From Cenococcum geophilum (Eukaryota), in assembly GCA_050273025.1 (NCBI GenBank), contig CP158635.1, positions 5,146,001 to 5,210,000 of the forward strand: a DNA stretch of 64,000 nucleotides, given 5' to 3'. Each line of letters opens with the position of its first letter. Within the stretch, counting starts at the first letter, position 1. The notes beneath the pieces are model-generated. The model saw nothing but the letters and a program-made list of their open reading frames with translations, was not told the origin of the DNA and did not search any database. Shown piece by piece: positions 8,589-40,643 of the stretch. The position numbers and the translations under genes were made by a program.

Positions 8589-9416
8589 GCTCTGTCAGGT
8601 ATACTTGCGGGGACTAACTAATATACGTAGTGCTACTGCCTCCCAAGGTCTGAACGAGCATTGTTGCGGCCATTAATCCGTCAAACTGCGTGGAATACCG
8701 TCCGGTCAACGTCGATGCAACAAGGCGTTGGGATGTCAACGCCCTAACCTGCGACGGCTGGAGGGGCATGATGGATGATGCGTGTTACATAAGCAATGGT
8801 CTAGGATTGAACCTATATTTTATTGGCTGCAGCCCCGGCTTGACACCAGCTGCTCACGTTAGCTAGACCAGTTCTGCCCATAATAAGAACGGGCGATTCT
8901 ACAGTCGCTAGCGAAATCGGCTTCCGCCCAAGTGCAGGTGCAACATCGCCTGTAAGCAAAAGGCTTGGCGCCCCACTTTACATATCTAGTAAGGCGCCAT
9001 GCTTGTTTGCACGTGATTTGCCACGGTACGAGAAAATACTTCTCTATCACAGTATGAGCCCACAGGGGTGTGCGGGTCGGCCGCCCTCCCTGCTGGCGGG
9101 GGCGAGTTTAAAGTATTTATGCTTTAATAGTCTGCTGTAAATACCGCTAAATATGCTGCCGCTGAAACCGTTCCGTGCAAAGAGGAAGTCGCCTTGCAGC
9201 CAAGCATGTGGCAAAAGTATTCAGATTCACCTCACGCAGCAGTCTCGGCAATGAGCTTTACCCAGAATAGTCAAACGCCATGCTCAGCCCGACTCTGACC
9301 AAGCATCCATAATGCAGGTAGACGGAGCCTATAACTATGTAGACCATACCTCATAACTTGACATTGAATTCGTGTATCCATCACTTACTCCGCAAGATTT
9401 TCAAATACGAAGCCGT

Positions 9417-11060: not shown

Positions 11061-11186
11061 AAGGTAAGTTGAATCGGTAGCACACTCGATGGCAAGCGCT
11101 TAAAGAATTCCAAAGCAAATTTATTGTCGAAGGTATGGCGCCAGCTGCCGAGCTACATTCATATTAGTCCCTGTTCAAAGGCAGAC

Positions 11187-11619
11187 ATTCACAGGTCTAC
11201 TTGCCTCCTACACCACCAAACGCGCCAGAATCAGCAGCAGCCTCGCATGTCAGGATTCGCAGATCTACCTACATCCTACACCACCAAACGCGCCAGAATC
11301 AGCAGCAGCCTCGCACGTCAGGATTCGCAGGTCTACTTACCAACTACACCACCAAACGCGCCAGAATAAGTAGCAGCCTCGCATGTCAGGATTCGCAAGT
11401 CTATTTACATCCTACACCACCAAACGCGCCAGAATCAGCAGCAGCCTCGCATGTCAGGATTCGTAAGTCTACTTACTATCTACACCACCAAACGCGGCAG
11501 AATTAGCAGCAGCCTCGCATGTCAGGATTTGCAAGTCTACTTACACCCTACACCACCAAACGTGGCAGAATTAGCAGCAGCCTCACATCTCAGGATTCGC
11601 AGGTCTACTTACTTCCTAT
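11187..11619. repeat. 68-bp tandem repeat, ~6.3 copies
   Basis: CTACACCACCAAACG starts at 11208, 11276, 11344, 11412, 11480 and 11548 (exact 68-bp period). Confidence 0.95.
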
Positions 11620-12346
11620 AATCAAACATGTTAGTACAATATCTAAAACAAGCGCTTACCCTCTATACCTACCCCGTTAGCTAAAATCACAATGTCTAGT
11701 TACTGTTAAGGCCTACCTGGAACAAGCTATCCTCCCATGTTTCTTGGCCCATCGGAATAGGTTCAATCGTAGTTAATAGAGATAACGATATGATAAACCA
11801 GATAGTATAGAAAGACTCCTACGCTTATAGAGCTTGGCTTTAAGTGCGCCTTTGTGCTAGGGTTGAGCGATAAATTCTTAGACTGTGGTGCGGATGCGGG
11901 GCAGTTCAATCGGCTGCTGACACGTAGCCCGTCCAAAGGCCAGCTGATCGTCATCTCTGCATATACCCAACCAAGCAAAAATATTCCCATAGGATTGCTA
12001 GAACAAGTTTAGTGACAGGATAATTAATGGTATTTGCAGTAGGTGATTAGGCCATAAAATACGTTAAACTCGCCCCGGCTGGCAGGGAGGGCGGCCGACC
12101 TGCACCGACCACGCCCCTGTTAAGGGTCTACTTCCTAAGATTGAAGAATAGAGAATATGGAATGGGGAACTGTGGTTGGTGTTGTCTTGAGTGTGGCGTT
12201 GTGGCGGTGATGCACTGCCTCCGCTGCTCGGTGTTTGGCTTGGCGCTGTTGCTGAGTCAACTGAACCATGCCGAACCCCCAAACCCCTCGAGATGACCAC
12301 CGTTCAACTTCAGGATACAGCCCATCTCATGCCATGACATACGGCT

Positions 12347-15551: not shown

Positions 15552-16104
15552 TATTACGGAGCTAGTTCTACACCGTTGAAAGGCTCTAGGGGGGGAAGGG
15601 TGTACATGGTAAACAACAGAGGTGGCATATACAGGGGACGGCCACAAGATATAAGAAACTGCTACAAGCAATAGCAATCAATTAACGGCAGGGCCTAGCT
15701 AGGACGCAGTGAACCCTAGCTACGGATGAGCTGGAATAAGGATGCAGTGGTTCCAAGGAGATCCAATATCCAATTAAGATCAGGGCGTAGCTACAGGCTG
15801 CAATAGCTGTAGACTACGTGTAAAGACAGTCAACGGGGTTTTTCATCCGACCGAGGTGGCTCGTAGGGTTTTTCCTCCCCAACATATCAGGGGTTTTCTT
15901 CCTGTATAATACACAAGTTTCCCCTATATACAGAGTAGTCTGCGTGGGCCTAGCTAGGATCCGTATCAGACGTTAATCAAAGAACATAATATATCATACT
16001 TCGACACGAATAGACGGTTCGAAAGAATGGACTTTCACGTATCACAGAGGTATCACAAAGGTATCACAAAAGGGATATCACAAAACGCGTGTATCATTTA
16101 TTAC
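15552..16104. mobile_element. Possible solo LTR
   Basis: Starts tattacgga (RIP form of TGTTACGGA, as in the 22548 LTR) and ends ...TTACA, with internal short repeats and TATA-like words. No target-site duplication found. Confidence 0.4.
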
Positions 16105-16929
16105 AGGAATAATAGGCACGGTTCCTTACATGCCGACGCCCATAGACAACTCCAGTTTCCTATAACTGCACAGCGCTAGCATACAACTCGGCCACTTAAT
16201 CCTATGCCACTATCATCAACACTTGACATCGCCAACACTCTCATCTTCACTTGATTCGAGCTAGCAGAATGTCGCACCAACTAGATTCTGCGCTCCATAC
16301 ATCCTTTTTCCTCCTAGCTACTTGCAGGTTGTGTTTCCATTTGTAACACTTGATCCTTAGGAAGCAAGATAGTTGTGTAGCTAGACCTTCAGATGCCTGA
16401 CGAGTTAAAGACGTACAAAGTCCTCCACTTTCTGTCCTTTCTAATGTCAACACTTTCGGGCCATATATTTGTCTTCTCTCCCGAGTCCCTTTTTTAAAGC
16501 CATTTCCAGTACATCAAGTAAAAAGTATGAGGCGGTAGACTAATCCCAATGCGAGAAGTGGTATGAAGCTGACGAGTCAAAGAGCATCAGAAAGGCTATC
16601 ATTGGTCATTTAGTGCTCTGTCTGGGTATTAAAGGTAAGTTGCTTCATGCAGCAATGCAGGAGACTAAGCATCCGAGCAGAACATCCACAGAAAACCGAC
16701 CTTCGAAATTATGTGCAAGGCTACCACCGGCTTTACTCTCGGCTATTGTGAAGATGAAGATAGCCAACCACAGCCCATGGATCCATATGGATACTGGCGT
16801 TGTAATGATGGTGGAGGTCGTATGAGGCTGTCAACGAGCCGGTTAGTGTTTTAGGTTGCTCTTCCGCAAGAAATGTGGCGTGCAATCAAAACTATCAATT
16901 GCAACTGAATGCAGGAGAAACTATTAGTA

Positions 16930-18520
16930 TTAACCTACACACTCGTCATATTGTGACAAAATCTCCTTCTCAAACCACAACCTATACTCGTTCTGACCCC
17001 ACAGCGTAATATCACAAAGGTTATTAAACAACCTCTTTATATCATCTATAGAATAAGTATCTCCTAGCCTTAGTGGTCCCAAGAAGAACATATTAAATTC
17101 ATCTGGTTTCTTTAGAATTTCCTCAGCCGTCACAACATGGAGAAGCCAAGCATCGGTTTGAATTTCCACTGCAAAGACTGGCATAGAGAGAGGCCAACCT
17201 TCGAGCTGCCGCTTTCGGAATTCCGCTGCTATCCAGGCTGCTAATTATATCGCCGGATCTTTATTTATATGGTTGCGTTTAACTTCTATATTAAGGAACA
17301 TAGGGTAGTAGTTCGTGAAGGAGGCGGTCTGGTTAATAGACTTAGTGACGGTTGGGGCCGCTTACAACATAAGGAGGGCATGTCGGCTAATGTCGAGGCC
17401 GACAGCATAGTCAATTTTCTTATCCAGGTCTTTGAACAAATCAGGTTCAGAGGAGTAAGGGCAAAGCTCAGGCAGAGATATTTCAACGGATGCGCTGTAG
17501 CAAAACCAACATTAGCAAAGCTTGCACCGCACGGATAAATCCATGCCACACTACGGAGTCGGGACAAGTAAACGTACATGTCGAACACTGTAATATTCTC
17601 ATTCCCTAATTTATTCTTCTTCTAAAAGTGGTGGAGGCACCGGAGCAGGTGCAGGATCGGGCCCACGACGACCGAGATCCAGTGCGACTCCGTGGTATTG
17701 GTGGAGCGCCATTTCTCGGCCATATCAAATGCATCTATCAATGTGTTGTTAATCAGCTCGGTGTCTGTCGCGGTAAAAGGGATTAGGGAGCTTGCAAAGG
17801 GAGGTGCGCTGCGGCGGGCCTGGCACTCTCTATTAGTAATCAACATTCACCTCACCGATGCGACAATTAGTAGCAATATACCTCGCAACGCTCCCAGAGC
17901 GCCTGTACAGATCCAGAGAGTGTAATTCCAAGATTCTCGGCCTGCCTCATCGCTTTGAATTCGATCCGCGGGCTGAGATAGGCTAGATCCTCCCGCTTTG
18001 TGACTACCCGCTTCTTCGGCGATGATGACCGGGTGCGGGTGGAAGATCGCGATGTCTTCGACGAGACAGTCGTCGGTGGATGGAACGATGGAGCTTCCGA
18101 TATCGTGTCGAAGGCTGAGACAACTGATGCGTCTTCTGTGACAAGTATAGGGTTTTCATCTTCAGCTATTGAATTCACCGTCGACCGAAGCGACAGCGCT
18201 GACCCCAGCCTTGCCGCATTCCGGGTGCGACTCCGCGTCGCTTGATTCTCCTCGTCATCTGCTTTCCGCTGCTTTCGGAGCGTGCTGCTCATAATAGATG
18301 GTTTATGATATTGAGGGTTGTGGGTGTGGGAGATGTCGGCTAGCGCGCGGCGATGCTTGTGAGTTTGGGAAGTGACGGGTGGAGGGCACTCGCTTATCCA
18401 GCACGCAATGTCGGGGCGACCATCGATGCGAGTTGCGTGTAAGATGTCGAAAACGTCGTGGGGCCGTTTGCGCTTGCGCGAGTATCGTGCGATAGTCATA
18501 ATGGGAGGCTGGTGATATTC
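16930..18520 (-). pseudogene. Fungal PD-(D/E)XK nuclease-like gene, intron-containing, with premature stops
   Basis: Low-complexity RSSSPKKR N-terminus, then ESHWISVVVGPIL, KKIDYAVGL, SINQT...PMFLNIEVK, LAAWIAA, MPVFAVEIQTDAW and LGDTYSIDDI. Premature TAA stops near 17365 and 17225. Confidence 0.75.
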
Positions 18521-18618
18521 AAGAGATAGAATGAGTGGCATGATGTTGATGCAGCTTGAGCGTTGCTTTACCAACCGAAGCGAAGCTTCCGGGGCGACAT
18601 CAGCCACTACTGTCGCCC

Positions 18619-18948
18619 AGTATTCGCTCATTGAGATCGGCTTGTTGTTCGCTTGGGTGTAGACGTCCTACTCGTACGAAGGACCGCGCAAAATTAGATT
18701 TCCTCTTCCTTTTTGGGACTAGTGACTACTCCCCATAAGGCCCCAGAGTTACGGGGGCTCTATCGCCTAAGCAACGAGATTTTAGGCGGTCTGCGCCCAT
18801 AGGACCCCCTAAGCACAGCAACCTTATGGGCGACCTTATGGGGGAAAACCACTAATCCCAAAAAGGAAGGGGAAATCTATTTTCGCGCGGTCCTCCGTAC
18901 CTCCTTCGCAAAGCGGATCGTGGCTTTGACCGCGCTAATGTCTGGGAA
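18619..18948 (-). mobile_element. Truncated LINE-tail derivative (SINE-like), interrupted by a MITE
   Basis: The reverse complement ttcccagacattagcgcggtcaaagccacgatccgctttgcgaaggag...gccgatctcaatgagcgaatact matches 35006 onward, 40644 onward and the LINE 3' region at 34512 onward. Confidence 0.8.
18677..18897. mobile_element. 221-bp MITE, Tc1/mariner-type (TA duplication)
   Basis: Terminal inverted repeats cgaaggaccgcgcaaaattagatttcc / ggaaatctattttcgcgcggtcctccg with TA on both sides. The homologous site near 35055 is empty, with a single TA. Confidence 0.9.
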
Positions 18949-19180
18949 ACGCCACGAAAACAACCCTGTGGCCGGTGCGGGTCGGCCGCCCTCCCTGCTA
19001 GCGCAGGCCAGGTGTAAGAATCTTACTCGCAGCGCAAGGCTGCGAGGATGTGCTGCGCCGCAGGTTTAATTCACACGTGACTTAGCCGGGGTGGCAGTGG
19101 TTCTTTTCACGTGATTTCCCAATTGTATATAGTATATTCTTGGCACTACAAATTTTAAGAGCCGAGCCACTAGATAAATC
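18949..19180 (+). repeat. Left arm of a ~230-bp inverted repeat (partner 29172-29406)
   Basis: Colinear reverse-complement match, with small indels and RIP-type changes mainly in the partner. Confidence 0.9.
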
Positions 19181-19309
19181 AATCAATCAACACTTGATAC
19201 CAAGGTAGCCACAAAGGAGGACGCTACAATATATCGCTAATCCACGGGAGACCACCAACAACATTACATCCTATTTCGACAAGCTATCCAACTGCTTCCT
19301 TTGACTGAA

Positions 19310-21915
19310 TCATTGTATTTCAAAAAGTTGTCTCTCTCTTTCAGATTTCTTCTGTAGCTCACAGGCCTCCCCGTTCATCATACCGTGAATATAGCATTCT
19401 CCTATGAGCTTGTAGTGGTACTTATCGGCATCACTATTCTCATTAACGATCTTCCGGAGAACAACAGGTACGCTACAGCCATATAGTATGCAGATACTTA
19501 ACGGCATTAACACGATGATTAGATCGATCAATGTAGATAGGCTGGAGATACTTACAGATCTCCAACCTGAGTGGCTGCTGGAGCCAACCCTAGTAATTGA
19601 AGCCCTCCTTCCGATTTTGGAGAGTCAGTCGTAATAAGTCTTTTATTCCACACCACAGATTGCACCCGTTGCAGATAGTCTTTTACCACACGCGAAAAGC
19701 CGCTATCAATCAAGCTGCCGATATCGAGAACATTATCCGTGCCGAACTTTCCTGATTGCTGGAAGGCATATCCGCAAAGCCGTTCGTAGTACGATGGCGC
19801 TCTGTTCCCACTGGAATCTCTATTTGCAGTAAGTGTCCTCCAAAAGCGCTCAGGTGGCGGTGATGAAACTCCATCCCACCCCACGAATCTTGTCCACTTG
19901 AGCGGGATACAGGCTTTGAGAGCTGACGGTTGCACCTTTTGGATCGACTCCAAGATAAACCCGTCTACAGACAGGCTCTTAGCGCACACCCCTTGTCCAA
20001 ATTCCCACGAGAGCATCCGGCTACCTACTGCAAATCCTGCGCTATATTGTCTTCTACCAGGACCCCGTAACCCAACCAGCGAATCGGCGTTGATACGATA
20101 GTATTCTCTGTTAGGACCAATTTCAAATGCAGCGTCGGATAGATTTCCAATCCATGACGGGAGGCCCTCGATCTCCTTTGGTACCCAATGCTGACAAATA
20201 ATATCGATACATCCAGATTTCAAAATCGTATGACGGACAAAATCCTGGCACACTTGGAAAAATGTCTTGGAATAGTTAACTGGGAAGTTTTGCGTCTCCA
20301 CTGCCCCGCTGAAGGCTTTCTGCGGGGACTTGTATCCCGACCGTGCATCCATGGCGAGAGGTAGAATTGCGTATATAATGTCATGAGGCACTGAGGCTTT
20401 AAATGCTGTCAAATTGAGAACAAGGTTTTCCAAACTTTGGAATCGCTTTAATATGGTTCCGTGATCTGATTTTTCAAACAGCCCCTCAGTGACATCAACA
20501 AGACGAGCGGCACCCGAGGTAGGGATACTTGCCCAAGGACGACTTTCATCGTTGGGAAGGACCCTCCCGTGTATATCGGACAGCCTGTAAACATGACCCC
20601 TCACAAGTCCTATAGTAAAGATGAATTCAGGCCATGCTACCTCACTGCTTCCGCAATGCAGAGCCGCCTGTTTCGCAAGAGCGATCTCCTGGATTATCCA
20701 CCGGCGGCTAAACCAAGGCCTCCTCAGCAAAGCTGATAAAGCACACCATTGTCGGGAGTATCTACCGTCCAATAAAAGATCGTCGGAACGTTCAATACAC
20801 TGTTGGACGAGTTGAATGAAGTCCATTGCTAATCCACTGTCATTTTCCTCCTCTCCAATCCATACGCACACCGAGCTTGCTTCTTGATATATCTCAGTCA
20901 TCATCCGTACCTGGGAGCTCTTTTCTTCAAAATCGTCTTGATTGATACAAACTGTATCAACCCAAAGGAATCTTGCAGTATCTAGTCGGCGGAAATGCCT
21001 CAAGGCCGATTCAAGAGTTGGCTTAACAGCGAACAAAGAGATTTTGTCACCTCGCCGGATTTTGATAATCGATTTGCGCTCCTCCTCGCCCCAATGCCAT
21101 GACAAAGCCTCGTATGACCCACCCCCCAAAAGGGGCCTTTCTGAAAGCGAGCAAACAAGCTCCGTGCTCTCAGCGCCAGGAAATAATTCTATAATGCGAA
21201 TCCAAGATCCATCCGTCAGAGGTGAATAACTGTACGGTTCGATGACACGAAAAGTACCATCTCCTGTCTCTTCAACCTCTATACGGCTATGATTTCCTTT
21301 GGATGTAATCCGAACATTTCGCCCAAGAGAACCGAGCACTCTGCCTACATCGTAGCCAGCATTAAAAGGAACCCTTGATATAAAGATTGGCTGTTTGGGC
21401 GTAAACACGAGATCGGCACCGGGTTTGAGTTCAACTGCTGCGACTGAGTGGATCCTGCCATCACACTTTCGGGCCAGTCCAACGACGTAGCTGTTAGGAT
21501 ACGGGATTTTGTTGTCGGTAATGATCTTAAAAGTTCCACTATCGGCATTGCTGCCGGCATCCTTAAGTTGTAAGCCTCCGTCCTTTGGAGTCACGAACAG
21601 CTGTGTGCCATCGTTCTTAATAGTCCCAATTTTGACAGGTTCAAAATCGATGATGGAAACCTTCGTTTCCTGGTCCAACTTTGAGCTAGCGTTACTGGAA
21701 ATGCCAGCGAAACCATAGAAGTCCGATGTGTACTTAAAGACCGATTCACTGTTGTTGCAAAGCGGATCAGTTATAGACCACAAGATCTGGCGAGTCTTTT
21801 GGACGCCGCCTCCAGTGACGTTTGGAGGTTCAGAGTAGACAAAGTATTTCCGCGAGTTATGTGTGTCCGCTGTCTTATTCCGGATGGCCACTCCGTAAGT
21901 AACTGGATCCGCCAT
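19310..21915 (-). CDS. Intact HET-domain protein (HET-6-like) with an extra ~225-aa beta-rich N-terminal domain
   Basis: Long open ORF with YEALSWHWG, LWVDTVCINQDDFEEKSSQVRMMTEIY, RPWFSRRWIIQEIALA and LPSWI. A 59-nt intron at 19497-19555 (GTAAGT..AAG) joins a last exon ICILYGCSVPVVLR...LIGECYIHGMMNGEA. ATG at 21915. Confidence 0.93.
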
Positions 21916-22547
21916 GGGTGATTGCAGGTTGTCTGATAGGACAAATGACAAGATGCTAGCAGGTATCTCGATGCTGTCTGGCAGGTGAGATAAGACGAAG
22001 AGATGAACCTCAGAGATTCCTAGGCGGTCTAGTAATTATAAAGGGGTATGCGGGGCAGAGGTAGCAGAGTGTACTAGCGGAATGGGCTCAAATTGGCTGC
22101 TGCCAATAGCACCGGCCTTTTTGGTGCCAATTACAGTAGTGGTCAACAGTTTTGAGCCCGGGTGACTTCCGCGCATTTTGAGAATCACCAACGACAACAA
22201 GACACGACACGACACGACACGAGTTAATCCCCTTGGCAGAGAAAAATTCAAATTTTACGTCACGTTTTGTGTGATCTAAGCGAAAATCCGAGAGGCTAAA
22301 TCCGTCGGCGAGACTAAAGCGGGCCTAGAGCGGCCTTTAGCGGCAACTAAACCTAAGAGGAACTAGATCTAATTAAATAACTAAAATAGTAAAATCTAAA
22401 AAGAAAAAGCGATTGTTAATATAATAGAGATTTTTTTTTAAAAACTATTAGCTACTATCGAGTTACTAATCTTTAAAAGAGTATATTAATTAAAATTTAA
22501 AGCTATATATTATCCTAATTGGCGTTACTAATAGGATTGATCTTTTT

Positions 22548-22999
22548 TGTTACGGACCTAGTACTATAGACGGTAGGACTACTGTTCTAAGACCTTAGGG
22601 TGATGGCAGAGGCTATGGAACTAGTCGAACCATGGGACGAGGGGTAGGCGAGTTATATGGGAGATTACGTGCTGAGGGTTTAGTACGTGGGAATGTAGGA
22701 ACACGGGACGTACCGACGTACCGAGTTCAGTACGCGGGAAACGTGAGGACGTGGACGTACTGACGTACTGACGTACCGACGTACCGAGAGGATTTCTTAG
22801 GAGTTAGGTTGTGTATTTAAAGGACCACAGTCCCTACCTAGATAGTTCTCTCGTTGTAGTGAATCTTAGGATATAATTGGAGTTAACCTGTTGGGCGACT
22901 ACTCCACCAGTTGTGATACAGAACCGTTGTCTTATTGTTTACCTACATACCCAGCCCATTAACAAGTCCACCGTGGTATTTCCTATAAGGCTCGTTACA
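22548..22999. mobile_element. Solo LTR (452 bp)
   Basis: TGTTACG...CGTTACA termini, flanked by a TTTTT 5-bp duplication (22543-22547 and 23000-23004). Confidence 0.85.
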
Positions 23000-23429
23000 T
23001 TTTTAGTACTAATTAGCGGTTAATACTTCTTGACTTCTACCTTATAGAATAGAACTTATTAAAGGAATAGAAGGTAAGTTTATAACTAAAGTAAACTAGG
23101 TATTTAGTACTATAAGAAGAGATTACATCGGGAAAAAGTTTATAGGCTGAAATTTAAACTACCTATCAAGTAAAATTAAATACTACCAATTACGTCAATT
23201 GCCTGCTAAATAGCTGGTAGTTAACGTAGTTAATGTTATTAACGCATTTAATATTTTTAATACGTAGCCTACGCGCAGCCTACGTGTTATAAACGCTACC
23301 TTAAATATATTACGGCTACTTAAAGAGGAGCTAGACAATATAATCTAGGCAATAGAAGTATAGGCCAGTATAAATTATATAGAACTATAGGATAAAGGTT
23401 AAGCGACGTACTAAACGTACCGAGCGTAC

Positions 23430-23977
23430 TTATGTTCTCTATACGCAATATAGATTAGTTACTTAGGAGTAAAGATATAGTCTATACCTAGTTTAACTTT
23501 AACGGCGGTAACTAGAGCGGGATCTCTATCTTTAGCCTTCCGGGTAACTCCGATAATACTACTACTAAGGGAAATATTATTATTATATGCGATAGTAAAA
23601 GTCCTATTATTAGCGTTGCGGGTTTTAGTAGTCTAAATATTAATACCTCCATTCTGTTTATATATAAGTAGCTAGATACTATTATTCTTAATCGTTCTAA
23701 TTATAACCTATTTACTATAGGCTACTAAAATATTATTTCTGGGCTTTAATACTAAGCTATTAGAGTAACTAATAAAGCTAAAGAACTTTAATATATATTT
23801 AAATAAATTATGGCCGCCTTTACTAATAGCGTTAGTTTTATACCATATAATTAAGGAAATTTTATAGATAACACCGCCTAAGACCTCCGGAAGTTTAGAG
23901 TAGACAATATATTATCTCTTTACATCTCCGCCAGTTCCGTTCTCAATAAATACCTTATAGGTAGATGTTTTTTCCAT
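23430..23977 (-). pseudogene. 3'-truncated RIPped copy of the stand-alone domain gene
   Basis: ATG at 23977 gives MEKTSTYKVFIENGTGGDVKR..., the reverse complement of 25397-25944. Lacks the last ~40 codons. Confidence 0.85.
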
Positions 23978-25944
23978 TTTAGAGGGTTAAAGAGGGCTAT
24001 AGGTAGTCTGGTAGAGTATATAATTAACTAAATATATAAATCATATATAAGGATAAGTTATGCCTTTATAATCTACCCCCTCTATAATTTCTTATAGCCC
24101 TCTTATTAAGAGTTCCTAAAAATTTAAGAGAATTTTACTATTAGGGACTAGCTTTATAGTAACTAAATTTTATTTACCTATGTAGAAGCTAGCTAGTGCT
24201 AGCAGTTCTGGCCTATAGGCCTATAAAAGAGAGCATCTTTACCTTAAAAGGCTATGGCTGTATATAGGGGTGTAAAGCACTTTATTATAGACGTTCTACT
24301 TTATTATACTTTACTAAATAAAAAAAATGCCGTATATAATGTAGGGTTATAAAAGCCCTTTATTTTATAGAGTTTAGGCAGCTATTAAAAAGCATCAGCC
24401 TCTTCGCGAGAGTAGTGGCGCCCGCGCTGTAAGTTTATATAGTAGTTAATAGAAACGACTTTAAATATAGTAGTATACGACCTTCGGTATCCCACCCCCT
24501 ATACGCGGCGGCATCTAATTCCGCTACAGCGGCACCTAAATTAGTATATAGAGCTAGTAGGAAGGAGTGTAACGGGAGTAGGGGCTAGATGGATCTTGCC
24601 TACCTTAAATCTAAAGCTATTCGCGACGCCCCCTTCTTATTAAATCGTGATATTACCTCTAGATCTTTAGTTACCCCCCCTCTTTCTCTAATATAGCTCT
24701 AAATATAGGCAATTAGTAGTATACCTTTATTAAGGTCCTTTTTATAGCTAGCGCTAGTAAATATATATGCACCTATTAAGCTAACTGCTCTCTATTACGC
24801 GGGGTTATAGGAAATACTGCAATGCTCCGGTAATTAGGCTAGGGAAGGTCATATACTACTATATTTAAAGTCGTTTCTATTAACTACTGCATAAACTTAC
24901 AGCGCGGGCGCCACTACTCTCGCGAAGAGGTTAACGCTTTTTAATAGCTACCTAAACTCTGTAAAATAAAAGGCTTTTATAACCCTATATTGTATACAGC
25001 ATTTTTTTTATTTAGTAAAGTATAATAAAGTAAAACATCTATAATAAAGTGCTTTACACCCCTATATACAGCTACAGCCTTTTAAGATAAGGATGCTCTC
25101 TCCTATAGGCCTATAGGCTAGAACTACTAGTATTAGCTAGCTTCTGTATAGGCGAATAAAATTTAGTTGCTGTAAAGCTAGTCCCTAATAGCAAAATTCT
25201 CTTAAATTTTTAGGAACTCTTAATAAGAGGGCTATAAGAAATTATAGAGGGGGTAGACTATAAAGGCATAACTTATCCTTATATGTAATTTGTATATCTA
25301 GTTAATTATATACTCTACTAAACTACTTAAAAACACCTCTAAGCTTTATCTTATCTACCCTACCAAACTACCTATAGCCCTCTTTAACCCTCTAAAATGG
25401 AAAAAACGTTTACCTATAAGGTATTTATTGAGAACGGAACTGGCGGAGATATAAAGAGACGATATATTATCTACTCTAAACTTCCGAAGGTCTTAGGCGG
25501 TATTATCCATAAAATTTCCTTAATTATATAGTATAAAACCAACGCTATTAGTAAAGGCGGCTATAATTTATTTAAATATATATTAGAGTTCTTTAGCTTT
25601 ATTAGTTACTTTAATAGCTTAATATTAAAGCCCGGAGACGATATTTCGGTAGCCTATAGTAAATAGGTTATAATTAAAATAATTAAGAATAATAGTACCT
25701 AGCTACTTATACATAAATAGGACGGAAGTATTAATATCTAAACTACTAAAACCCGCAACGCTAATAATGGGACTTTTGCTATCGCATACGATAATAATAT
25801 TTCCCTTAGTAGTAGTATTATTGGAGTTGCCCAGAAGGCTAGAGATAAAGATCCTACTCTAGTTACCGCTGTTAAAGTTAAACTAGGTATAGACTATATC
25901 TTTACTCCTAAGTAACTAGTCTATATTACGCACGGAGAATATAA
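23430..25944. repeat. Long inverted duplication: arms 23430-24485 and 24844-25944, ~360-bp spacer
   Basis: The arms are reverse complements differing mostly by transitions. The right arm has a small extra insert near 25316-25365. Confidence 0.95.
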
Positions 25945-26068
25945 TATCTATATAATAATTAATCCTTAGTCTATTAAGGTATTTAGCTAAGTAGAGTTTA
26001 AGGGCAGTTTAATAGAGGTGCATATTAAGGAAAATAGTAGTGGTACCTTTAATATTTAATATAAGTGA
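25397..26068 (+). pseudogene. RIPped stand-alone gene (223 codons) homologous to the N-terminal domain of the neighbouring HET protein
   Basis: One frame from ATG 25397 to TGA 26066: MEKTFTYKVFIENGTGG..RRYIIYSKLPKVLGG...KNNST*LL...NANNGTFAI...VTAVKVKLGIDYIFTPK*LVYI...KENSSGTFNI. It aligns end to end with MADPVTYGVAIRNKT..RKYFVYSEPPNVTGG...KNDGTQLF...NADSGTFKI...VAAVELKPGADLVFTPKQPIFI...EETGDGTFRV. Confidence 0.88.
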
Positions 26069-26178
26069 TGATACCAGGTAGGTTTTTATATCTTTAGATT
26101 AGGGATATTACTAATGGGTAATACAAGGTCTATATTTGCGGTTAAGCCGCCTAGGCTACTTTACATTATTAAGGGGTT

Positions 26179-28228
26179 TTAGCCGACTGTTAATACAGAG
26201 GTTACGGTTATAGCTTTTTTTTTTAGTAGAGGAGGGACGTTTTCTCTTGTTTGTATAGGAGAAGCCTATATACCTAGCATGTGACTTATTATATTAAGAG
26301 AACCTATCTACTTACATAATTTACATTTATTTATATTAGCGATTACAACCTTTTATAAACCGGCTTTTATATTTCTATTCGTTTTTAACGCCGTATAAAT
26401 AGTTCTAGCCAACTTTATATATTGAAGTGTTCCTGCCAATCTCTACTTCAATAGGCTTGAATTTTTATATGGCTCGTGCCCGCTTTACCTTTAGCTGTTA
26501 AACAGTTAGTAAAGCTATATACGCGAATTTCCTATATAGTTATTCTTTTCCCCCTAATAACCATTGTAAGAGGTAACCGTTATTAAGCTAAAAACCAAGG
26601 CATATAGTACCTAATTCCCTAGCTAATACTATGTTGGCCGTCTAAACTAAACTACTATACAAGCAAACCCGATAGTCTTTCTGCGAATTTGGTCCATAAC
26701 GATATATTATAGAGTTTCTTGCCCAAATTAGCATTCTCTAAGCCGTATTTAAACTCCCTATAGGCGCCCTAAATTAGCTCCAACTAGTATAAGGAAATTT
26801 GCGAAATATGCCTATTTGTAGCGAATGGAGGCGATACGAAGTATTATCCCAGTCTAGTAATAATCCAGTAGCGAGGCTTAGCATTTAAAAAAACTTATTA
26901 GAGGGTATAAGTAATCTAGAGCTTATTTAGATATTAAGTACATGGCTAAACCTCTATGGCGGCTAGAGCTTAGTCCGGCTTAATTTAAGTATATTAATAT
27001 TGGATTACCGCTCATTTGCCTCTTAAGCGGTCTCTTATATCTATAATATACTCTATATCACCTTATATACGCCAATCTATATCCGTATATATCTTCTAGC
27101 GCAGTCTCTCTAAGAACGACACCTTTAAAAGTAGGGTATATCTAGCTCTGGTTCTAATTAGTAGGACATACTATATTGGCCTATAGCTCGCTTATTAGTT
27201 AAAAGTAAGTGACCTTATTAGCTAACTGTATGTAAGGCTAAGATAAAATGCCTTAAGATACTGTATTCTCTTCTCTAGTTTATCCACGATTTATAGCTAA
27301 TTACTATTAGCTGGTTAGCATTCATCCTAGCTCTTAAGAGGTGACCTAGCTGCTTTCACTGCCACTACTATCTCCAGCCTTAAGGTCGCGGCAACTTATG
27401 TCTTATACCACTTAGTTCAGTTTTGCAGTTAAAAATCCCTAATAGAATAGTAAAGGCATATCTTATTGACCTGGCGTCGATTACTACTATATTAAGCTTA
27501 GATTAGGGGTAAATGCCTTACCCACTTCGTGTATTTAATAAGGCTCTAAATCCTTTTATAGTAAAACAGAGTTCTTATTCTTAATTGCCCTGTTTAATAT
27601 ATCTTAACCATTATTAGTAACCTGCTCCGAGTGCTTCTTTAAACTATATTATAAGCTTGGAAACTTCTAGGTATATTGCTTTTATATTATTACCTTATAG
27701 TATCTTTTTCATCCTAACTTCTAGATAGGCTTAGAACATAGCTGCCCAAGTTATCACTTATGGCCTCAATATTAAGCTTAGCCAAAATATGGATATTATA
27801 TATATGGGTAGGAACTATAAAGATAATGTAAATGTGGGGGTAGCTATAGTGACGAGGGCAGACGCGGAAGGTGCTAGTAACGATCAAGAGGTGTTCCTCC
27901 CTCTTTAAAGTTTAATAGTAGGATTTGCTGGGACAATAGAGGTATAGGTTTATTGCTAGGTTTAAGGTCTAGCAGTTATAAGGTTTATGTCAGTTTTCCT
28001 AGGCGAAAACCGGGTTTTATTTGACAACCAGCCTTAAATAAATATTGGCTTCTTTTACGCTCAAAACCGTTAAGTAGATAAATAGGTTATGCGACTCGTT
28101 AGGGCGGAACCGCTGAGTATAACCATTGGTTTAACCTTTCCTAATCCTGATTATTCTATCAGTATTCGCTCTATACGCGTCAACTTTAATATTTAATAAA
28201 ATTCGTCTATATCGTCCTTTAACGCCAT
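26179..28228 (-). pseudogene. RIPped hypothetical gene of unknown family
   Basis: From ATG 28228 (MALKDDIDEFY...) there are long protein-like frames whose stops are mostly TAA/TAG. A CKLC motif lies near the end. No domain recognised. Confidence 0.5.
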
Positions 28229-29171
28229 TCTTAAGAATATAAGAGAATAGGAGGCCACTTTACTCGGTCCCATCGTCTAACTAATCTTCGCGCGGTTTAA
28301 TATCCTATCTATCACCAGGCTTGCTAATTAATTAATTTAATTTAATTCAATTGACGCCTTAAATTAATTAAATTGAAAGCTTTATAAGCAGAGGGCTTAG
28401 TTAATTAAATTGATTGAATTAATATTGCAACGGTTGCAACTAAATTTAACTAGTATAGTAGTTAGTAATTATTACAAGTCTTGGCATAGTGTTAATATAG
28501 AAAGACCTACCTACTAACGCCTAGATTGTTTTTTACCGTCGTTTCTTTCGCCTTTGCTCTTAATATAGGCCTATCGCGAGTCTTAGTATAGTGTTAAGTC
28601 ACCTTTCTACCGTATATATCCTGTTCCTTCTACAGGCGCTTTAACTGCCCATCTACTATATAAACTATATCTTCCTTATCCCACGATCCTACCGCCATTA
28701 AAGCTCCAATTATATTAGGTTGCAGTCGTGCGCAATTAGTAGTAAGGAGTAAGCCTATAAGGCTAAATATACGTTCGGGGTCTGACGATATTAGTGGAAT
28801 TATTATCAAATCGAGAGCTATATGAGCGAGTCGTTAATATTAAGTTCCTTTTATTCTGGCTTGCTAATAAGCAATTGGATTAGTACAGTGGACGTCCTTA
28901 ACCGCCTTATACGTAAGATAATGCCTTATATAGATAGGTCGCTTTGTCCGATTCTTATGGGACGTACTTAAAGAGTTTACATCGTATATTTGTCGTGTCA
29001 TTTTTGTCTAGTATTAGGCGAAGCAAGCGAACGCTATTAGGCGTCTATAAAAGCGGAGAATAACAGTACTAAGACATGGCACAAGACATAGCACCCAGAA
29101 ACTTAAACTTGTGTAGATTTAATAGCCCTAATGGGTAGTAATAAGCCTAGTTATTATCTGCGATCAAGCGT

Positions 29172-29406
29172 TAATTAATCTAGGGGCTTGGCTTTTAAAA
29201 TTTGTAGTGCCAAGAATATACTATATACAATTGGGAAATCACGTAAAAAGAACCACACTGCTACCCCCGCTAATTCACGTGTGAACTAGACCTGCGGCGC
29301 AACACATTATCGCGGCCTTGCGCCGTAAGTAAGATTCTTACACCTAGCCTGCGCTAGTAGGGAGGGCGGCTGACCCGCACCGGCTATAGGGTTGTTTTCG
29401 TGGCGT
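29172..29406 (-). repeat. Right arm of the ~230-bp inverted repeat (partner 18949-19180)
   Basis: Direct sequence comparison. Confidence 0.9.
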
Positions 29407-32400
29407 AGGAGCCCCGATGGCTGCTTCGACCCCTAAATGCGTATTAGCAACACTACCTCTAAACCCGCTAGCAGCTTTACTAAGACGTATAAAGAAACCG
29501 AGCGCGAAGGTGTAAGAGGCCTAGTAGTTGCTGAGGACACGAGCCTAAATATTAGTATAGTTTAAATAGTAGATAACCGCACTATAAACCGGACTATAAG
29601 CTATATAGTATATACTGCCTCTATTCCCTATAGTAAGAGTCTCTACCTTACCTAAACGTAAAGGAGGAGGTATTAATTATAATGAATTTTATCGACTTAT
29701 TAAAAGCCTTAAAGAAACTATAGTATAGCAAAGCAATATTATTATAAACTAGAATAGTATTATTAAGAGCATTAGAAATGACCTTATAAATATTAAATCG
29801 GAATAGCGAAGCCTTAAAAAGCAAAACACTAAACTCTAAAAGGCCATCCGGTCCTTATAAGCGCAACTAAATACTCCCTTAGCTCTAATATAATTATAGG
29901 TATTAGTAGCGGCTAGTAGAGGCATGGCAGGGTTAGAGATAACCTTGCTATAAATAATAAGCGCTAGGAACCCTAAGGAACCTAATTAGCAGCTAGTAAT
30001 AGACGTTAGCTAAGCGGGTAAGGAGGTAATAGAGAGGGTAGCTACTACTAAAGCAGTAAAGTAAACTATTGCGTAAGGTATAAAGGATGTTAAGGGGCTT
30101 ACGGGAGCTATACTTAAGGACTTCCGCGTATGGCGAATAAGCGATAGCGTGAGCATTATTAGATTCTCGGTGGAAAAAGATAAAGAAGCTGTGTTTAGGT
30201 AGACGACTACTTAATAGCTTAAACTGTATATCCCTAGCGCGAGGCTTATTAGACCTAAGTAGTATACAGTTAAGGCGGACTGGGTTAAAGTACCTTTAGT
30301 AATGGATATTAATAGCGGAAAAGTAAGTAAGTCAGCTATAGAGCGCTTTGGGGTAGAGAATGGGGTAGAGGTATGTATAATAAGATAGCTAGGATAACTA
30401 AGGCCGCGCGGCTAGTACGTGTTAGTAATTATTAAAGTGGCAATAAAGGAGGATGTAGAAAAGCTGCTTACGTTAAACAACGTGTTATTTAGGGGAGGCG
30501 CGATTATTATATCACCATTTAAGGAGCGACGTACCCCTATAGCATACTATAAATGTAAAAGGTTTAGACATAGGGCTAGAGACTATATATAACCTAATAT
30601 ATGCGAAATATATAGGCGGGAAGGCTATCTCTGGTGTAAGACGGTAAATCTATACTATGTAAACTGCTAGGGTCCTTACTAAGCCTTATACTGTAAATAC
30701 CTAGTATATAGAAAAGAGATAAATAGGATTCTTATATAATAGCGCTATAAATAGAGAACTCTGGATCCTTTAGGCGAATATAAAGAAGTATAGGAAGGCG
30801 TAGTATGCGCTATATAATGATGAAGCGCTAGCGGACTTCTACTTTATTCTAGGCTAGGAGCCTTATTGCTTTCTCTTAAATAGGGAAGTGGTGCTAGCTG
30901 GCTTAAATCCCTAGTAAATAAGGTTCGTCCTAATAGGCAGGTAGCAGCGGTATTTTTTAGTTAGGTTATATATCTAGGCATTTAGAGAGCTGGCAGCTAT
31001 ATAGCTATAGGTAGATTTAGTAGACATTATGGTGGTAGTAGCGCACGTTAGCTAAAGGAGACTTATAATTATATTGGTATATATTTTAAATAGAGGTTTA
31101 AGGAGAACTAAGGAAGAGAACCTAGAGAAGCTCTTTAGCAAACTAGAGATAATTAATAGGCTAATCTAGGGTGAACTATTACGCGACCTATATACCGAGG
31201 TAGTAATCGTAGGTAACTTTAATTGGCACAATCTGCTATAGGGAGGAAGTTATATTAGTACCATATTAACACAGAAAGAAAGCGTACTAATTATTGACTT
31301 TATAGCGGACCGGTTACTCTAGAGCCTACTTCTAGTAGGAATACCTACGTTTAAAAGCGACGCGGGGCGAATATTAACAATTGACCTTATATTTATAACC
31401 CCGGGCCTAGCGAATAAACTAGTAAAGTGCGCTATCTAGGAGTATAAGTACGGATTAGACTATAGAGCTATCTATACTAGCTTCTAGGTCAATATAGACA
31501 CGTAGAAGAGCTAGGAGAGGCTGCTTATTAAGAATATAAACTAGGACAAGATATAAGAAGACGTAAAGTAATAGAAAGAGATAGGATTCCCTATAGAAGA
31601 TATAGACGAAATAGTTAACTACTTTAATAGGTGGGTTAATAAAGCCCTTAAAGCACACTGCTAATAGGCCAGACTATTACTGTATATAAAAAGATAGTGG
31701 AATAAAGACCTTATAACGCTGAGGAAGTTATATATATACTAGAGGAATAGAAATAGCGCGATATAGAGGTAAAGAAGGGATGACCCTAAGCTATATAATA
31801 TTGTAGTAAGAGCGAAGAAGCTTTTTTATAGGACTATTCGGCGATATAAAAAGCTCTATTAGGACGAATTTCTTAGTAACAGTAACAATATATAAAAAGC
31901 GTCGAAATACCTTAATCCGTAGGCTATATCCGCGTTCACTAAAATACCGCTAATTAAGAAGGATAGAGGATAGGGAGAAGTCGTTATAGAGAACTATAAT
32001 ATTGCAAAAAAACTACTCTAGGTATTCTTTCCGGTCCCGCCGCCGTGTAAATAAGAGGAGGAAGCTATAACTAGCTATAACTAATTGCTATAAAAGCCTA
32101 TCGCCAAATATAAGGTCGAGGTAGCTGTGTTTAGGGCTAGCCCAGATAAGGCTTCTAGAAGGGACGGCCTACTAGCTAGGGTATAGCGAGAGCTATAGCC
32201 CGTATTAAGTGGTAAAATCACCACTCTCTTTACCAAATTACTTGAGATAGGAAAGGTACCCTAGAAATAGAAGGTAGTAAAGATTATACCGCTATAGAAG
32301 CTAAAGTGGGGGGACTATACAGTAGCAAATAACTATAGGCCGATCTCCCTCCTCCCGACGCTAGGAAAAGCACTTAAATTACTAGTAGTGGAGAGGATAG

Positions 32401-34992
32401 TATACCTAGTAGAGGAATATAGCCTACTACCTAAGACGCACTTTAGAGCTAGGAAGCAAAGATTAACAATATATACGCTATCGTATCTCTATAAGGACGT
32501 ATTTAGAGTATAAAGAGGAAAGAAGACGCTGTCTCTAGTATTATTTAATATTAAGGGTATGTATAATAATATGGCTATAAAGCCGGAAATTAGGAGATTA
32601 TAGCAGCGTTAAATACCTTAGACGATTATATAATAGGTGCAGGACTTTTATATAAACTATTAAGCCTATATCCTAGTTAATGGATACACATTAGAGGTAT
32701 AGGCGCTCCTATAGGCGGGTCTCCTATAGGGATTAGCACTAGCCCTAATACTCTTTCTATTCTTTAATGTGGATCTTATATAAAACACACCTAAAAATAG
32801 CAGCTTTATAGCCTTTGTTAATGACTACTTAGTATAGGTTATAGGCCCTATAGCGGAGGAAAACACATAGATTATCTAGGGCGAGATTATACCAATACTT
32901 AAGAAATGGGAGAGGACTAGTGGAGCCCAATTTAAAGCGAAGAAAACGTTATTTATCTACCTTACTAGATATAAAGAAGCAGGCAGGGATACCACTACGC
33001 CGCTCCAATTTAAAGGAAAAGGGATCCCCCCGACTTAGGAAGTTAAAATCCTTAAGGTGATCCTTAATAAGGAGCTACGGTTTAAGGCGCACCTAGTAAA
33101 TAAGGTAGGCAAAGCCACTAAGGTAGCGCTAGCGTTGCGCAGATTAAAGGGACTGTAGTTTAAGAGCGTTAAGCAGCTAGCTAAGAGCTTAGTCCTATTA
33201 GTAGTAGACTACGCGTTGCTAATATGGTACCCGCTTATAATATAAGAGTTAATACAGCTCCTCTAGTAGGCGCAGAGGATTACGGTATAAGCTATTATTA
33301 GGGGGTTCCGCTTTATTACCCTGCTAATAGTAAAAGTAAAAGCTAGCTTACTCCCTTTTAAGTAAAGGCTGCGTAACCAGGCTATCGCGTTCTGGGTATT
33401 AATCTATAAACTAGGCAAATTATATCCTTATTAGATGATTTAAAGACAAAGGCTCTACAGACGGCACCGGTCGCCGCTTTAGAGGATAGTAGAGATATAT
33501 AAGGATATCCAGGTAAATAGGGTGCTAGAGGTTAAACCGTATATATACCCGCTGTAGGTAGCTAAGCTAAATATAGTAATATGCAAGGACGAAGAGTATA
33601 CTTAAGCTATTATTAAAGACTATAAACTAGGGTAGGTTAACATATACGTTAATATATCGGTACGTAATAGTAGGGCAGGAGTTAGCGTATATACTACGCC
33701 ATCTAAAGTAACGCTTTTAAAAACGGTAGCGGGCTTTAAGTAGGCCGACGCCTACCTAATAGAGCTTCTAGCAATTAGCGAGGCAGCTAACTGGCCATAG
33801 GACCCTATATACACGGCTATTAACTAAGTAGGTTTTCCAATACCTACTTCTAGTATAAGAATATTCTTTAACTCGTAATTAGCATTACTATTAGTATAGA
33901 GCTAGAGGGCTAGAGTTTGCTAGGAAATAGTTATAGAGATCTTAAAGAAGCTCTAGCTAAACAATATTACGCTATACTAGATTCTAGGCTATTTAGGATT
34001 TATAGAAAACGAGAAGGCCAATAAGCTTACTAAAGTAGCGATAAGACTAGAGAGCGAAGAGCCACTATAGAGAGACGGCCTCCTATAGTACCTTATAACG
34101 CAAGCCTTAAAAAAAGCTAAGATAATAATAGGACCGCTTCTATTAGGAAGATCTAATATAGGTAAGTTTATAAGGAAGATTAACGTAGTACTCTACCTTA
34201 GAAAGGCTATAGGATTATACTAGTAGCTAATTAGCCTAGAAGCTACTATCTTTACGTAGCTACGGACTAGTAAGTTATTTCTAAAGGAATATCTCCACAA
34301 AATTAATATATTAGAGACGGCGTTATACAACTATAGGCTTATAAAATTAATATAGCACTTCCTTTTCTTTTATAGGAGGTGGGCGCAGCAGAGGATTAAA
34401 CTAAGAGAGTAATATAGAGATCGATTTAGGGATCTATTATATATATTAGGAGGCTACTTACGTAGATAAGAAGGAGGCAGGAGTATTAACGGCCCAATTA
34501 AGCGCTAGAAGCCAGACATTAGCGTAGTTAAAGCTATAATTAAATTTATAAAGGAGACCGGACGTCTATACCTAAGTATATAAAATATAGAGAGTATAAA
34601 AGCCAATATTAATAAGTAAAGACTCCTAAGAATTCCTTCTCTAATTATCTAACCAAATATACCGCGAGCCTCCTCTATACATACCTCTACTAGTACGTTG
34701 CCGATTAAGAAGCGTATAATACTGGAATAGCCCTATAGACACAAGGCGTTAAAAACTACTTACTTAAGCTCGCCTTTAAACTCTAACTTTCTTTAATAGT
34801 AACACATTACTTTCCTTTATTTTTTCCTTAGTTAAGTATAGTATTAGGTAATAGATATATAGTTCTTATAGTTGGCTTCTAAACTAGAGCAAGTATATTA
34901 ATAGCAGGAAGTATTTAGTTAGCGCTCTGTAACGGCCTATACCCTAAATAGTACATGGCTATAATAGAATATATATATATATATATATATAC
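29407..34992 (+). mobile_element. Full-length RIPped Tad1-like LINE (ORF1 with CCHC knuckles; ORF2 APE endonuclease, RT, RNase H), 13-bp TSD
   Basis: Degraded knuckles at ~30545-30710, GNFNWHNLL*GG, TIDLIF, YRPISLLPTLGKAL, GLL*GLALALILFLFF, AFVNDY and LY*ILGY..NEKA..L. (TA)n/(CATA)n tail. GTTTTCGTGGCGT at 29394-29406 and 34993-35005. Confidence 0.95.
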
Positions 34993-35005
34993 GTTTTCGT
35001 GGCGT

Positions 35006-35150
35006 TTCCTAAACATTAGCGCAGTTAAAGCTATAATCTACTTTACAAAGGAGGTATAAGTAGGATGTTTACACCTAAGCAAATAATAAGCCGATCTTAA
35101 TAAGCGAATACTCCTAAGGATCCCCTCTCCTACCTATACCTTTTAACCGA
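35006..35150 (+). mobile_element. Truncated LINE-tail derivative immediately downstream of the full LINE
   Basis: ttcctaaacattagcgcagttaaagc...gcgaatactcctaaggatcccc matches 40644 onward. Confidence 0.8.
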
Positions 35151-40615: not shown

Positions 40616-40643
40616 ACGCCATCTCGACTTGTTTTTGTAGCGT

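What the first reader, a model, noticed from the sequence alone, without database searches (positions are those of the whole stretch)
18949..29406. 10.4-kb unit enclosed by ~230-bp inverted repeats contains the whole HET / stand-alone domain / unknown gene cluster
The arms 18949-19180 and 29172-29406 are inverted homologues, each with the hairpin motif at its outer end. They enclose X-HET, both stand-alone X copies and the hypothetical gene at 26179-28228, with no recognised transposase. This resembles a Pack-type or invertible cassette. Caveat: homology continues outward into the LINE-tail derivative on both sides (18619-18948 vs 35006-35110), so the arms may instead come from an inverted segmental duplication.
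Basis: partly seen in the sequence, partly recalled or inferred. Interest (0 to 1): 0.7.

Follow-up and report, generated by a model that had tools for sequence, protein, structure and literature searches.

The report
Transposon-derived ends around fungal HET gene
The inverted repeats around this fungal self-recognition (HET) gene are real, and their outer part is a transposon-type end that brackets many immune-type genes in the same genome, but here one end is a local copy of the other and nothing shows that this 10-kb block itself ever jumped or flipped.

Summary
Arms confirmed (18949-19182 / 29171-29406, 89%), but composite: a 43-bp hairpin motif M, the end of a dispersed HET-TPR unit, and a solo-LTR-like insert. 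That junction was found only in these two arms. The right copy keeps both ancestral neighbours; the left is a copy of about 365 bp (a later MITE not counted) that includes 105 bp of the outer LINE-tail piece. M itself matters: 97 exact core matches, enriched in inward-facing pairs, mostly around HET/NLR-type genes. New here: M aligns without gaps (30-33 of 43) to the TIR of TA-duplicating Tc1 elements of this genome; one relative unit has TA on both sides and is inverted between two genomes; 10 of 25 units have matched ends like this one. Best reading: a secondarily symmetrised member of a non-autonomous Tc1-derived cargo family (ToxTA-like), whose ends a LINE targets. Against: TA-TA in only 1 of 25 units, no empty site, no transposase shown to act on M. 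The scan noted the M-bracketed NLR units and the LINE targeting before, on other DNA of this genome.

The parts
18619..18948 (-). D-left: 105 bp of a LINE-ORF2-tail-derived repeat, truncated at 18619 and split by a MITE; outer part of the duplicated segment
   Evidence: 19 RIP-type transitions, 0 transversions against D-right; contigs of runs X6 and X11 stop matching the left flank at 18622 and 18616
18677..18897 (.). MITE with its own inverted repeats, TA on both sides, inserted later into D-left
18949..18960 (+). 12 bp outside M; the same letters form the LINE target-site duplication at the right end
18961..19003 (+). M, left: 43-bp hairpin motif related to a Tc1 TIR (CAACCC variant, shared by both arms)
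   Evidence: 30 of 43 identical to the TIR of L316 and L317
19004..19097 (+). A: inner end sequence of the dispersed HET-TPR unit family
19098..19208 (+). B, left: near-complete ~105-bp solo-LTR-like repeat with a probable 5-bp duplication (19093-19097 / 19204-19208, one mismatch)
   Evidence: the LTR label is inferred from TG..CA ends and a purine tract before some other copies
19552..21915 (-). X-HET gene, intact and not RIP-mutated: all-beta N-terminal domain X (about 190 aa) plus HET domain
23430..24485 (-). left arm of the inner inverted duplication, with a broken stand-alone X copy (23444-23965)
   Evidence: 87 transitions, 0 transversions between the arms
24844..25944 (+). right arm of the inner inverted duplication, with a broken stand-alone X copy (25406-25945)
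28681..28884 (-). hAT transposase C-terminal remnant, unrelated to the arms
   Evidence: PF05699, E 1e-4
28897..29168 (-). C: upstream region and start of the HET-TPR family gene, cut off at 28897; ancestral inner neighbour of A
29171..29406 (-). right arm: 3'-deleted B, A, M (29352-29394) and the 13-bp LINE target copy (29394-29406)
29407..34992 (+). RIP-mutated LINE inserted at the outer edge of M, 13-bp duplication at 29394-29406 and 34993-35005
35006..35112 (+). D-right: counterpart of D-left; the repeat continues to about 35977

Best explanation
The block is a secondarily built member of a family of non-autonomous cargo units whose ends (M) derive from the terminal inverted repeat of a Tc1-type DNA transposon and which mostly hold HET/NLR-type self-recognition genes. 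Steps. (1, shown by alignment) The right end is the decayed start of a dispersed D-M-A-C-HET-TPR unit into which a small LTR inserted. (2, shown for the product, mechanism inferred) A segment of about 365 bp of that end (105 bp of D, M, A, the LTR and its duplication) was copied in inverted orientation 10 kb away, most likely by templated repair of a break, giving the X-HET block two matched ends. Such end matching recurs in the family. (3, shown) A LINE then inserted at the outer edge of the right M, a MITE inserted in D-left, the right LTR lost its 3' end, and RIP mutated everything right of about 22160 while X-HET stayed intact. (4, inferred) The arms allow inversion by recombination and might be read by a Tc1 transposase in trans, but this unit shows no trace of having done either.
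For: Arm pieces occur separately: none of the 38 other best-scored genome matches covers both A and B (145 candidates, 40 scored), and among all loci held only window-derived loci span the A/B junction in full. A continues into C and a HET gene elsewhere. D-left and D-right differ by 19 RIP-type transitions and 0 transversions and share an indel with 1 of 14 other D copies. M core: 97 exact matches, control 0; of 14 adjacent pairs within 20 kb, 9 face inward (P=0.002 against 1/4; about 1 pair expected if uniform). HET, NACHT, NB-ARC, WD40, ankyrin, TPR or PNP domains in 25 of 35 ORFs, 18 of 23 loci. M aligns ungapped to the TIR of two 1.4-kb elements with DDE_3 and HTH_Tnp_Tc3_2 domains (33 of 43; the arm's variant 30 of 43); a copy of that TIR family shows TA duplicated against uninterrupted D copies (L120). 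L063 (G000) and L215 (metagenome contig) share both flanks, have TA on both sides, and have the interior reversed from M to M; this unit has the same A and C as the right arm. In 10 of 25 paired units the inner 40 nt of the two ends are more alike than 95% of between-unit pairs (P=2.5e-4). A 2613-nt contig of run X6 matches the left flank from 16794 to 18622 and then runs on unlike for about 760 nt; a contig of X11 stops at 18616: both at the outer edge of D-left, not at 18949.
Against: TA on both sides in only 1 of 25 paired units; the two bases outside M were CA 50, AA 35, TA 33, GA 14, other 17 of 149 ends in metagenome loci, so most ends do not look like fresh Tc1 insertions, and the recurring 12-mers outside M are unexplained. 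No transposase lies between two M ends in any locus held. No empty site was seen for any unit. The 35 ORFs were chosen by me as the longest near M, with no background control, and these gene families are expanded in this kind of genome (PMC9293092, passages). The L215 inversion rests on one short-read contig across a 46-bp perfect repeat. The arms carry 5 transversions in 234 bp while D carries none in 103, which a single copying event explains only by chance. The direction and mechanism of copying are inferred.
Confidence: 0.6

Rival explanations
1. A true Pack-type transposon: the 10.4-kb unit was cut and pasted as a whole with the arms (or M within them) as functional TIRs, and LINE-derived pieces later inserted independently at both ends.
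For: M faces inward at both ends and is Tc1-TIR-like; LINE-derived elements do insert repeatedly at the outer edge of M, so D could have arrived twice; the unit size matches ToxTA (14 kb; PMC12506042, passages); the left flank continues differently in runs X6 and X11.
Against: No TA or other duplication at M; D-left has no tail or target duplication and differs from D-right only by RIP changes; single copy in G000; the flank match in X6 and X11 ends at 18616-18622, 330 bp outside the arm.
Confidence: 0.15
2. An ordinary rearrangement scar: a short inverted patch copied from a nearby repeat nest during break repair at the edge of a 43-kb repeat block. M is incidental here and X-HET is simply a neighbour, never cargo.
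For: The left copy has neither ancestral neighbour and joins the flank through a 4-bp microhomology at 18619-18622; a second, younger inverted duplication lies inside the unit; everything from about 22160 to 61900 is RIP-mutated repeat DNA.
Against: Matched ends centred on M recur in 10 of 25 units; the M-bearing copy sits about 350 bp from the HET stop codon, as in other units; a second inward M pair around another HET gene lies 7 kb away (9070/12105).
Confidence: 0.15
3. M works mainly as a recombination hub, not as a transposase substrate: nicks by the M-targeting LINE endonuclease start repair between M copies, which swaps flanks, inverts units and copies ends, so immune-gene cassettes are shuffled without cut-and-paste.
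For: LINE-type inserts sit at the same base of M with 12-13-bp duplications in 13 of 84 outward flanks (many too short to show one), often in tandem; one outer flank class is joined to different inner ends; TA-TA is rare; an M-to-M inversion exists.
Against: No cleavage or recombination was measured; shared outer flanks are themselves repeats and may be independent insertions; outer flanks of one unit are not more alike than those of different units (2 of 25, P=0.33).
Confidence: 0.1

Closest known systems
ToxTA (formerly ToxhAT) of wheat-infecting Dothideomycetes (PMC12506042 and PMC6737239; passages read)
   Same: About 14 kb, non-autonomous, 74-bp TIRs, TA duplication, judged Tc1/mariner-like, composite interior with nested elements and a hAT-like gene, holds an NLR-related gene, and was found inverted precisely from TIR to TIR in one isolate, with recombination offered as an alternative cause.
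   Different: ToxTA is one element with a documented empty site and TA duplication. Here M ends number at least 97, hold many different HET/NLR-type cargoes, mostly lack TA, and are targeted by a LINE; this unit has no duplication and its arms were lengthened by copying one end.
Tc1-type elements of the same genome (L316, L317 and 150-bp MITEs)
   Same: TIR aligns to M without gaps (30-33 of 43), same terminal CAAGGG and the same inner CCCTCCCTGC(T/A)AGCG.
   Different: They have TA at both ends and a DDE transposase or no cargo; M units have host-type genes and varied outer bases.
Tx1L/Tx1D of Xenopus and Tx1-Mar/SINEU with Mariner-N4_AMi of crocodilians (PMC4494074; passages read)
   Same: A non-LTR retrotransposon and its short derivatives insert preferentially into a non-autonomous DNA transposon family.
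   Different: Those are animal Tx1-clade elements; this is a fungal LINE (Tad1-like by my reading of its translation, label recalled and not tested) inserting at the TIR edge in tandem arrays.
Starships as NLR carriers, and TE-associated, occasionally moved NLRs of Podospora (PMC13449251; passages read)
   Same: NLR/HET genes near transposons show presence/absence and relocation; ectopic recombination or direct mobilisation was proposed.
   Different: Starships are tyrosine-recombinase elements of 20-700 kb without TIRs (size recalled); the passages seen name no shared TIR around NLRs.
Pack-TYPE elements of plants (Pack-MULE, Pack-CACTA; recalled, met only in a search listing)
   Same: TIRs of an autonomous family enclosing captured host sequence.
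   Different: They keep family-typical duplications and usually hold gene fragments; here whole genes, and no duplication at this unit.

Membership tests
Non-autonomous Tc1/mariner cargo transposon (ToxTA-like) | Inward-facing TIRs at both ends | tested here: met
   M at 18961-19003 (+) and 29352-29394 (-)
Non-autonomous Tc1/mariner cargo transposon (ToxTA-like) | TIR related to that of a Tc1 transposase-bearing element in the genome | tested here: met
   30 of 43 (arm) and 33 of 43 (canonical M) ungapped against L316 and L317, which carry DDE_3 and HTH_Tnp_Tc3_2
Non-autonomous Tc1/mariner cargo transposon (ToxTA-like) | TA target-site duplication | tested here: not met
   This unit has AA outside the left M and TT outside the right M; TA-TA in 1 of 25 paired units (L063/L215)
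Non-autonomous Tc1/mariner cargo transposon (ToxTA-like) | Movement as a unit (second locus or empty site) | tested here: inconclusive
   Single copy in G000; no contig of 4 runs joins the two flanks; relatives of the right end occur at 10 or more other loci
Non-autonomous Tc1/mariner cargo transposon (ToxTA-like) | Ends bound and cut by a transposase in trans | not testable with these tools
   An open Tc1-like frame exists at G000:C7:384192-385223; its specificity is unknown
hAT or Mutator (Pack-MULE) element | 8- or 9-bp target-site duplication | tested here: not met
   No direct repeat of 2-9 bp abuts M in this unit, none at 18949/29406; the hAT remnant is internal
Invertible cassette | Both orientations observed | tested here: inconclusive
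   Not seen for this unit (the 19099-29139 joint is explained by LTR-free A+C copies elsewhere); seen for the relative L063/L215
Invertible cassette | Dedicated recombinase in or beside the unit | tested here: inconclusive
   No such Pfam family in six frames of 22401-29000 or in X-HET; RIP damage lowers sensitivity; 21916-22400 not scanned
Starship | Tyrosine-recombinase captain as first gene | tested here: not met
   The genes next to the two ends are X-HET and a HET-TPR start; the 43-kb block to the right was not scanned for a captain
Helitron 3' end | Hairpin, then CTRR, then host T | tested here: not met
   Hairpin and CTAG present but followed by C in 28 of 30 copies, and the motif aligns to a Tc1 TIR; the Helitron rule is recalled
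Inversion with staggered-break duplications | Each duplicate keeps one ancestral neighbour | tested here: not met
   The right copy keeps both (C inside, long D outside), the left keeps neither; the rule is recalled

The most novel reading that the evidence does not exclude
A Tc1-derived terminal repeat has become the common handle of a genome-wide cassette system for fungal immune genes: about 100 or more M ends bracket HET/NLR genes, the units invert, copy their ends and exchange flanks, and the breaks come from a Tc1 transposase in trans and from a LINE that targets the TIR edge. This block would be a new cassette assembled around an intact HET gene with an uncharacterised all-beta N-terminal domain.
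Probability: 0.25. Interest if true: 0.85.

Novelty: new variant of a known kind. Interest (0 to 1): 0.6.

Why it matters
How fungal NLR and HET genes multiply and change place despite RIP is an open question (stated in PMC13449251, passages). A defined 43-bp end related to a Tc1 TIR, an open candidate transposase frame, a candidate inversion polymorphism and a LINE that hits the same base make that question testable in one genome. The unit in this window adds a clear case of how matched ends arise by copying, which also explains why target-site duplications are lost. Taken alone the unit is a single-copy, mostly RIP-mutated composite and is of moderate interest.

Tried and rejected
Rfam on 18500-19400: one match at E 2.3, far below its gathering score; no RNA family for M. 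Helitron end, ribozyme or chimeric retrotranscript readings of M: dropped once M aligned to a Tc1 TIR and the LINE duplications were found between M and the LINE. hAT or Mutator reading: no 8-9-bp duplication. Laying 4 of 24 listed runs on 16000-29600: X5 is identical over the listed interior pieces and is not independent; X6, X11 and X14 give almost no cover over 19178-21901, which proves nothing alone; no contig joins the two flanks; the joints 19099-29139 (opposite strands) and 19003-29059 are explained by other family copies and were not counted as inversion or excision. Function of the hypothetical gene: no Pfam hit, no homologue. X domain: no near-length relative by word search, a single-sequence model was unusable (pLDDT 33); with 37 sequences the model was confident (pLDDT 92) but matched no solved fold (best Z 2.6, no Foldseek E under 0.001), which does not show a new fold. 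Own TIRs for the second Tc1 group near M ends were not found. Outer-flank symmetry as a family rule was not supported. Paper searches listed nothing that describes an NLR/HET-bracketing Tc1 TIR family or a fungal LINE targeting a TIR; the library lacks most subscription papers and no supplements were read.
Full report
Setting. The window is G000:C1:5146001-5210000 of a 178-Mb, 7-contig genome with strong RIP-type mutation from about 22 kb to 62 kb (RIP is my reading of the dinucleotide indices). The one database protein identical over the X region, P0001, is labelled by its source as a HET-domain protein of Cenococcum geophilum.

Observation. The arms are real: 18949-19182 against the reverse complement of 29171-29406, 211 of 236 columns, E 7e-85. 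X occurs only at these three places in G000 (3 matches of 4 candidates).

The arms are composite. A genome search with the left arm gave 40 scored matches of 145 candidates. Apart from the two arms, each covered the outer part (positions 1-151) or the inner part (about 149-234), never both. The inner part B is a dispersed repeat of 93-117 bp that starts TG and ends CA in intact copies, with a purine tract before several; I read it as a solo LTR. The outer part continues in other loci into C (window 29168-28897) and then a HET gene with TPR-type repeats. So B inserted once, at the A/C border. Among all loci held, only window-derived loci span that junction in full; two others, L015 and L022, reach about 18 bp past B at 79% through their purine tract.

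One end is a copy of the other. The right copy keeps C inside and, beyond the LINE, the long D repeat outside. The left copy has a near-complete B with a probable 5-bp duplication, no C, and 105 bp of D cut off at 18619. D-left and D-right differ by 19 C-to-T or G-to-A changes, all on the right, and no transversion, and share an indel seen in full in 1 of 14 other D copies. The arms proper differ by 14 such changes on the right, 4 on the left and 5 transversions, which fits a single copying event less neatly. No direct repeat abuts either M or 18949/29406. The limit at 29406 is the insertion point of a LINE with a 13-bp duplication at 29394-29406 and 34993-35005. Contigs of two other runs follow the left flank to 18622 (X6, 2613 nt, about 760 nt left over) and 18616 (X11) and then differ, which is the outer edge of D-left.

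The hairpin motif is a family end. A 25-bp core of M has 97 exact matches in G000 and 0 for the control. Of 14 adjacent pairs within 20 kb, 9 face inward, 2 outward and 3 the same way (P=0.002 against one quarter, about 1 close pair expected if uniform). I scanned 35 long ORFs that I picked inside or beside M ends at 23 loci: 25 ORFs at 18 loci had HET, NACHT, NB-ARC, WD40, ankyrin, TPR or PNP domains, 1 a phospholipase D motif, 9 nothing. Loci without long ORFs were not scanned and there is no background control. The same core occurs in 121 metagenome stretches (scan stopped at its limit). In 10 of 25 paired units, including this one, the inner 40 nt of the two ends are more alike than 95% of between-unit pairs (P=2.5e-4), while outer flanks are not (2 of 25). 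Matched arms are thus a habit of the family.

M derives from a Tc1 TIR. A related motif, searched with TA as part of the pattern, has 97 matches, many as 150-bp pairs and two as 1.4-kb pairs. Both 1.4-kb elements hold RIP-broken DDE_3 and HTH_Tnp_Tc3_2 domains. Their TIR aligns to M without gaps at 33 of 43 positions, and to this unit's variant at 30 of 43. One such element sits in a D copy with TA on both sides where uninterrupted D copies have one (L120). A second Tc1 group, 44-48% identical, has an open 344-codon frame at G000:C7:384192-385223 and lies on the outer side of M ends in 6 loci, never between two; its relation to M is unknown.

One relative behaves like ToxTA. L063 (G000 C5) and L215 (a metagenome contig) share both flanks in the same order, have TA next to both M ends, and have the interior reversed from M to M. 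This unit has the A and C of the right arm. It is one short-read contig and needs confirmation. It is also the only TA-TA case among 25 paired units (where the extra row L063 was mis-offset and is the same locus as L215). Outside M, CA and AA are at least as common as TA. This is the main result against simple Tc1 cut-and-paste.

The LINE. Of 18 stretches traced outward from M, chosen largely because a LINE was already seen there, 12 had the LINE at or within about 250 bp of the edge of M and several had tandem copies. A 12-13-bp duplication starting at the last base of M was found in 13 of 84 outward flanks, many too short to show one. Of 30 LINE tails, several are followed by sequence that I could not tie to M, so the specificity is not absolute or not measured. 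Animal parallels are Tx1L/Tx1D and Tx1-Mar (PMC4494074, passages).

Mechanism. Shown: the composite anatomy, the copy relation of the two ends, the LINE and MITE insertions, the homology of M to a Tc1 TIR, the family of paired ends. Inferred: that the left end was made by templated repair, that M units were spread by a Tc1 transposase in trans and then reshuffled by recombination, and that this unit could invert. Not shown: that this unit moved or inverted. I give this reading 0.6, a true transposed unit 0.15, a mere scar 0.15, and a LINE-driven recombination hub 0.1.

Comparison and novelty. It works most like ToxTA, a 14-kb non-autonomous TA-duplicating element that was also found inverted from TIR to TIR (PMC12506042 and PMC6737239, passages). 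It fails the TA test, so I do not file this unit as a member. NLRs near transposons and occasionally moved are known in Podospora (PMC13449251, passages), and HET/NACHT families are expanded and variable in C. geophilum (PMC9293092, passages). Six searches listed no paper on a shared TIR around fungal NLR/HET genes; the library is incomplete and supplements were not read. Earlier notes of this scan report the M-bracketed NLR units and the LINE targeting on other DNA of this genome; I had reached both before reading them, and they are not independent support. In the lines shown they do not mention the Tc1 link, the inversion or the end matching. Verdict: new variant of a known kind, interest 0.6.

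Noticed in passing
window 9070-12121: A second inward-facing M pair with matched inner ends around an un-RIPped HET gene (PF06985 E 2.5e-11); further single M copies at about 6615 and 7973.
   Followed up: partly
window 21316-21915: Domain X: 70 relatives, stand-alone (about 220 aa) or fused to HET, ankyrin, vWA or subtilase domains; confident all-beta model (pLDDT 92) without a solved-fold match; weak Atlas lead to RhiA_N (0.93, low recognition value). An X-HET gene beside stand-alone X genes could be a sensor or decoy pair.
   Followed up: partly
window 40441-40987: Two LINE-tail pieces head to head, each starting with a 12-mer of the kind found outside M, joined by only two T: possibly the footprint of a lost M unit.
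   Followed up: no
window 47116-47265: 150-bp MITE with the Tc1-type TIR and TA at both ends.
   Followed up: partly
L321:1893-2924 and L322, L323, L133, L176, L232: Second Tc1-like transposase group on the outer side of M ends, one frame open over 344 codons; in three copies it shares a downstream stretch with an HNH-like ORF (label recalled, not scanned).
   Followed up: partly
L124-L135, L140: LINE 5' junctions often carry short extra copies of the outer edge of M or of the Tc1 TIR, as if transcripts start upstream in the target.
   Followed up: no
L220, L237, L247, L266, L285, L288; L080, L222, L267, L268: The same outer flank class is joined to different inner ends; the recurring 12-mers outside M are unexplained.
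   Followed up: partly
L057:1863 outward, L254:11998: A ~530-bp element with its own inverted ends begins exactly at the last base of M.
   Followed up: no
L083:1480-1501, L292:325-355: Two M copies back to back as a palindrome with no flank between them.
   Followed up: no
window 6927-7259, 11119-11662, 39053-39463, 42511-43348: Tandem arrays with 17-, 68-, 16- and 17-bp units.
   Followed up: no
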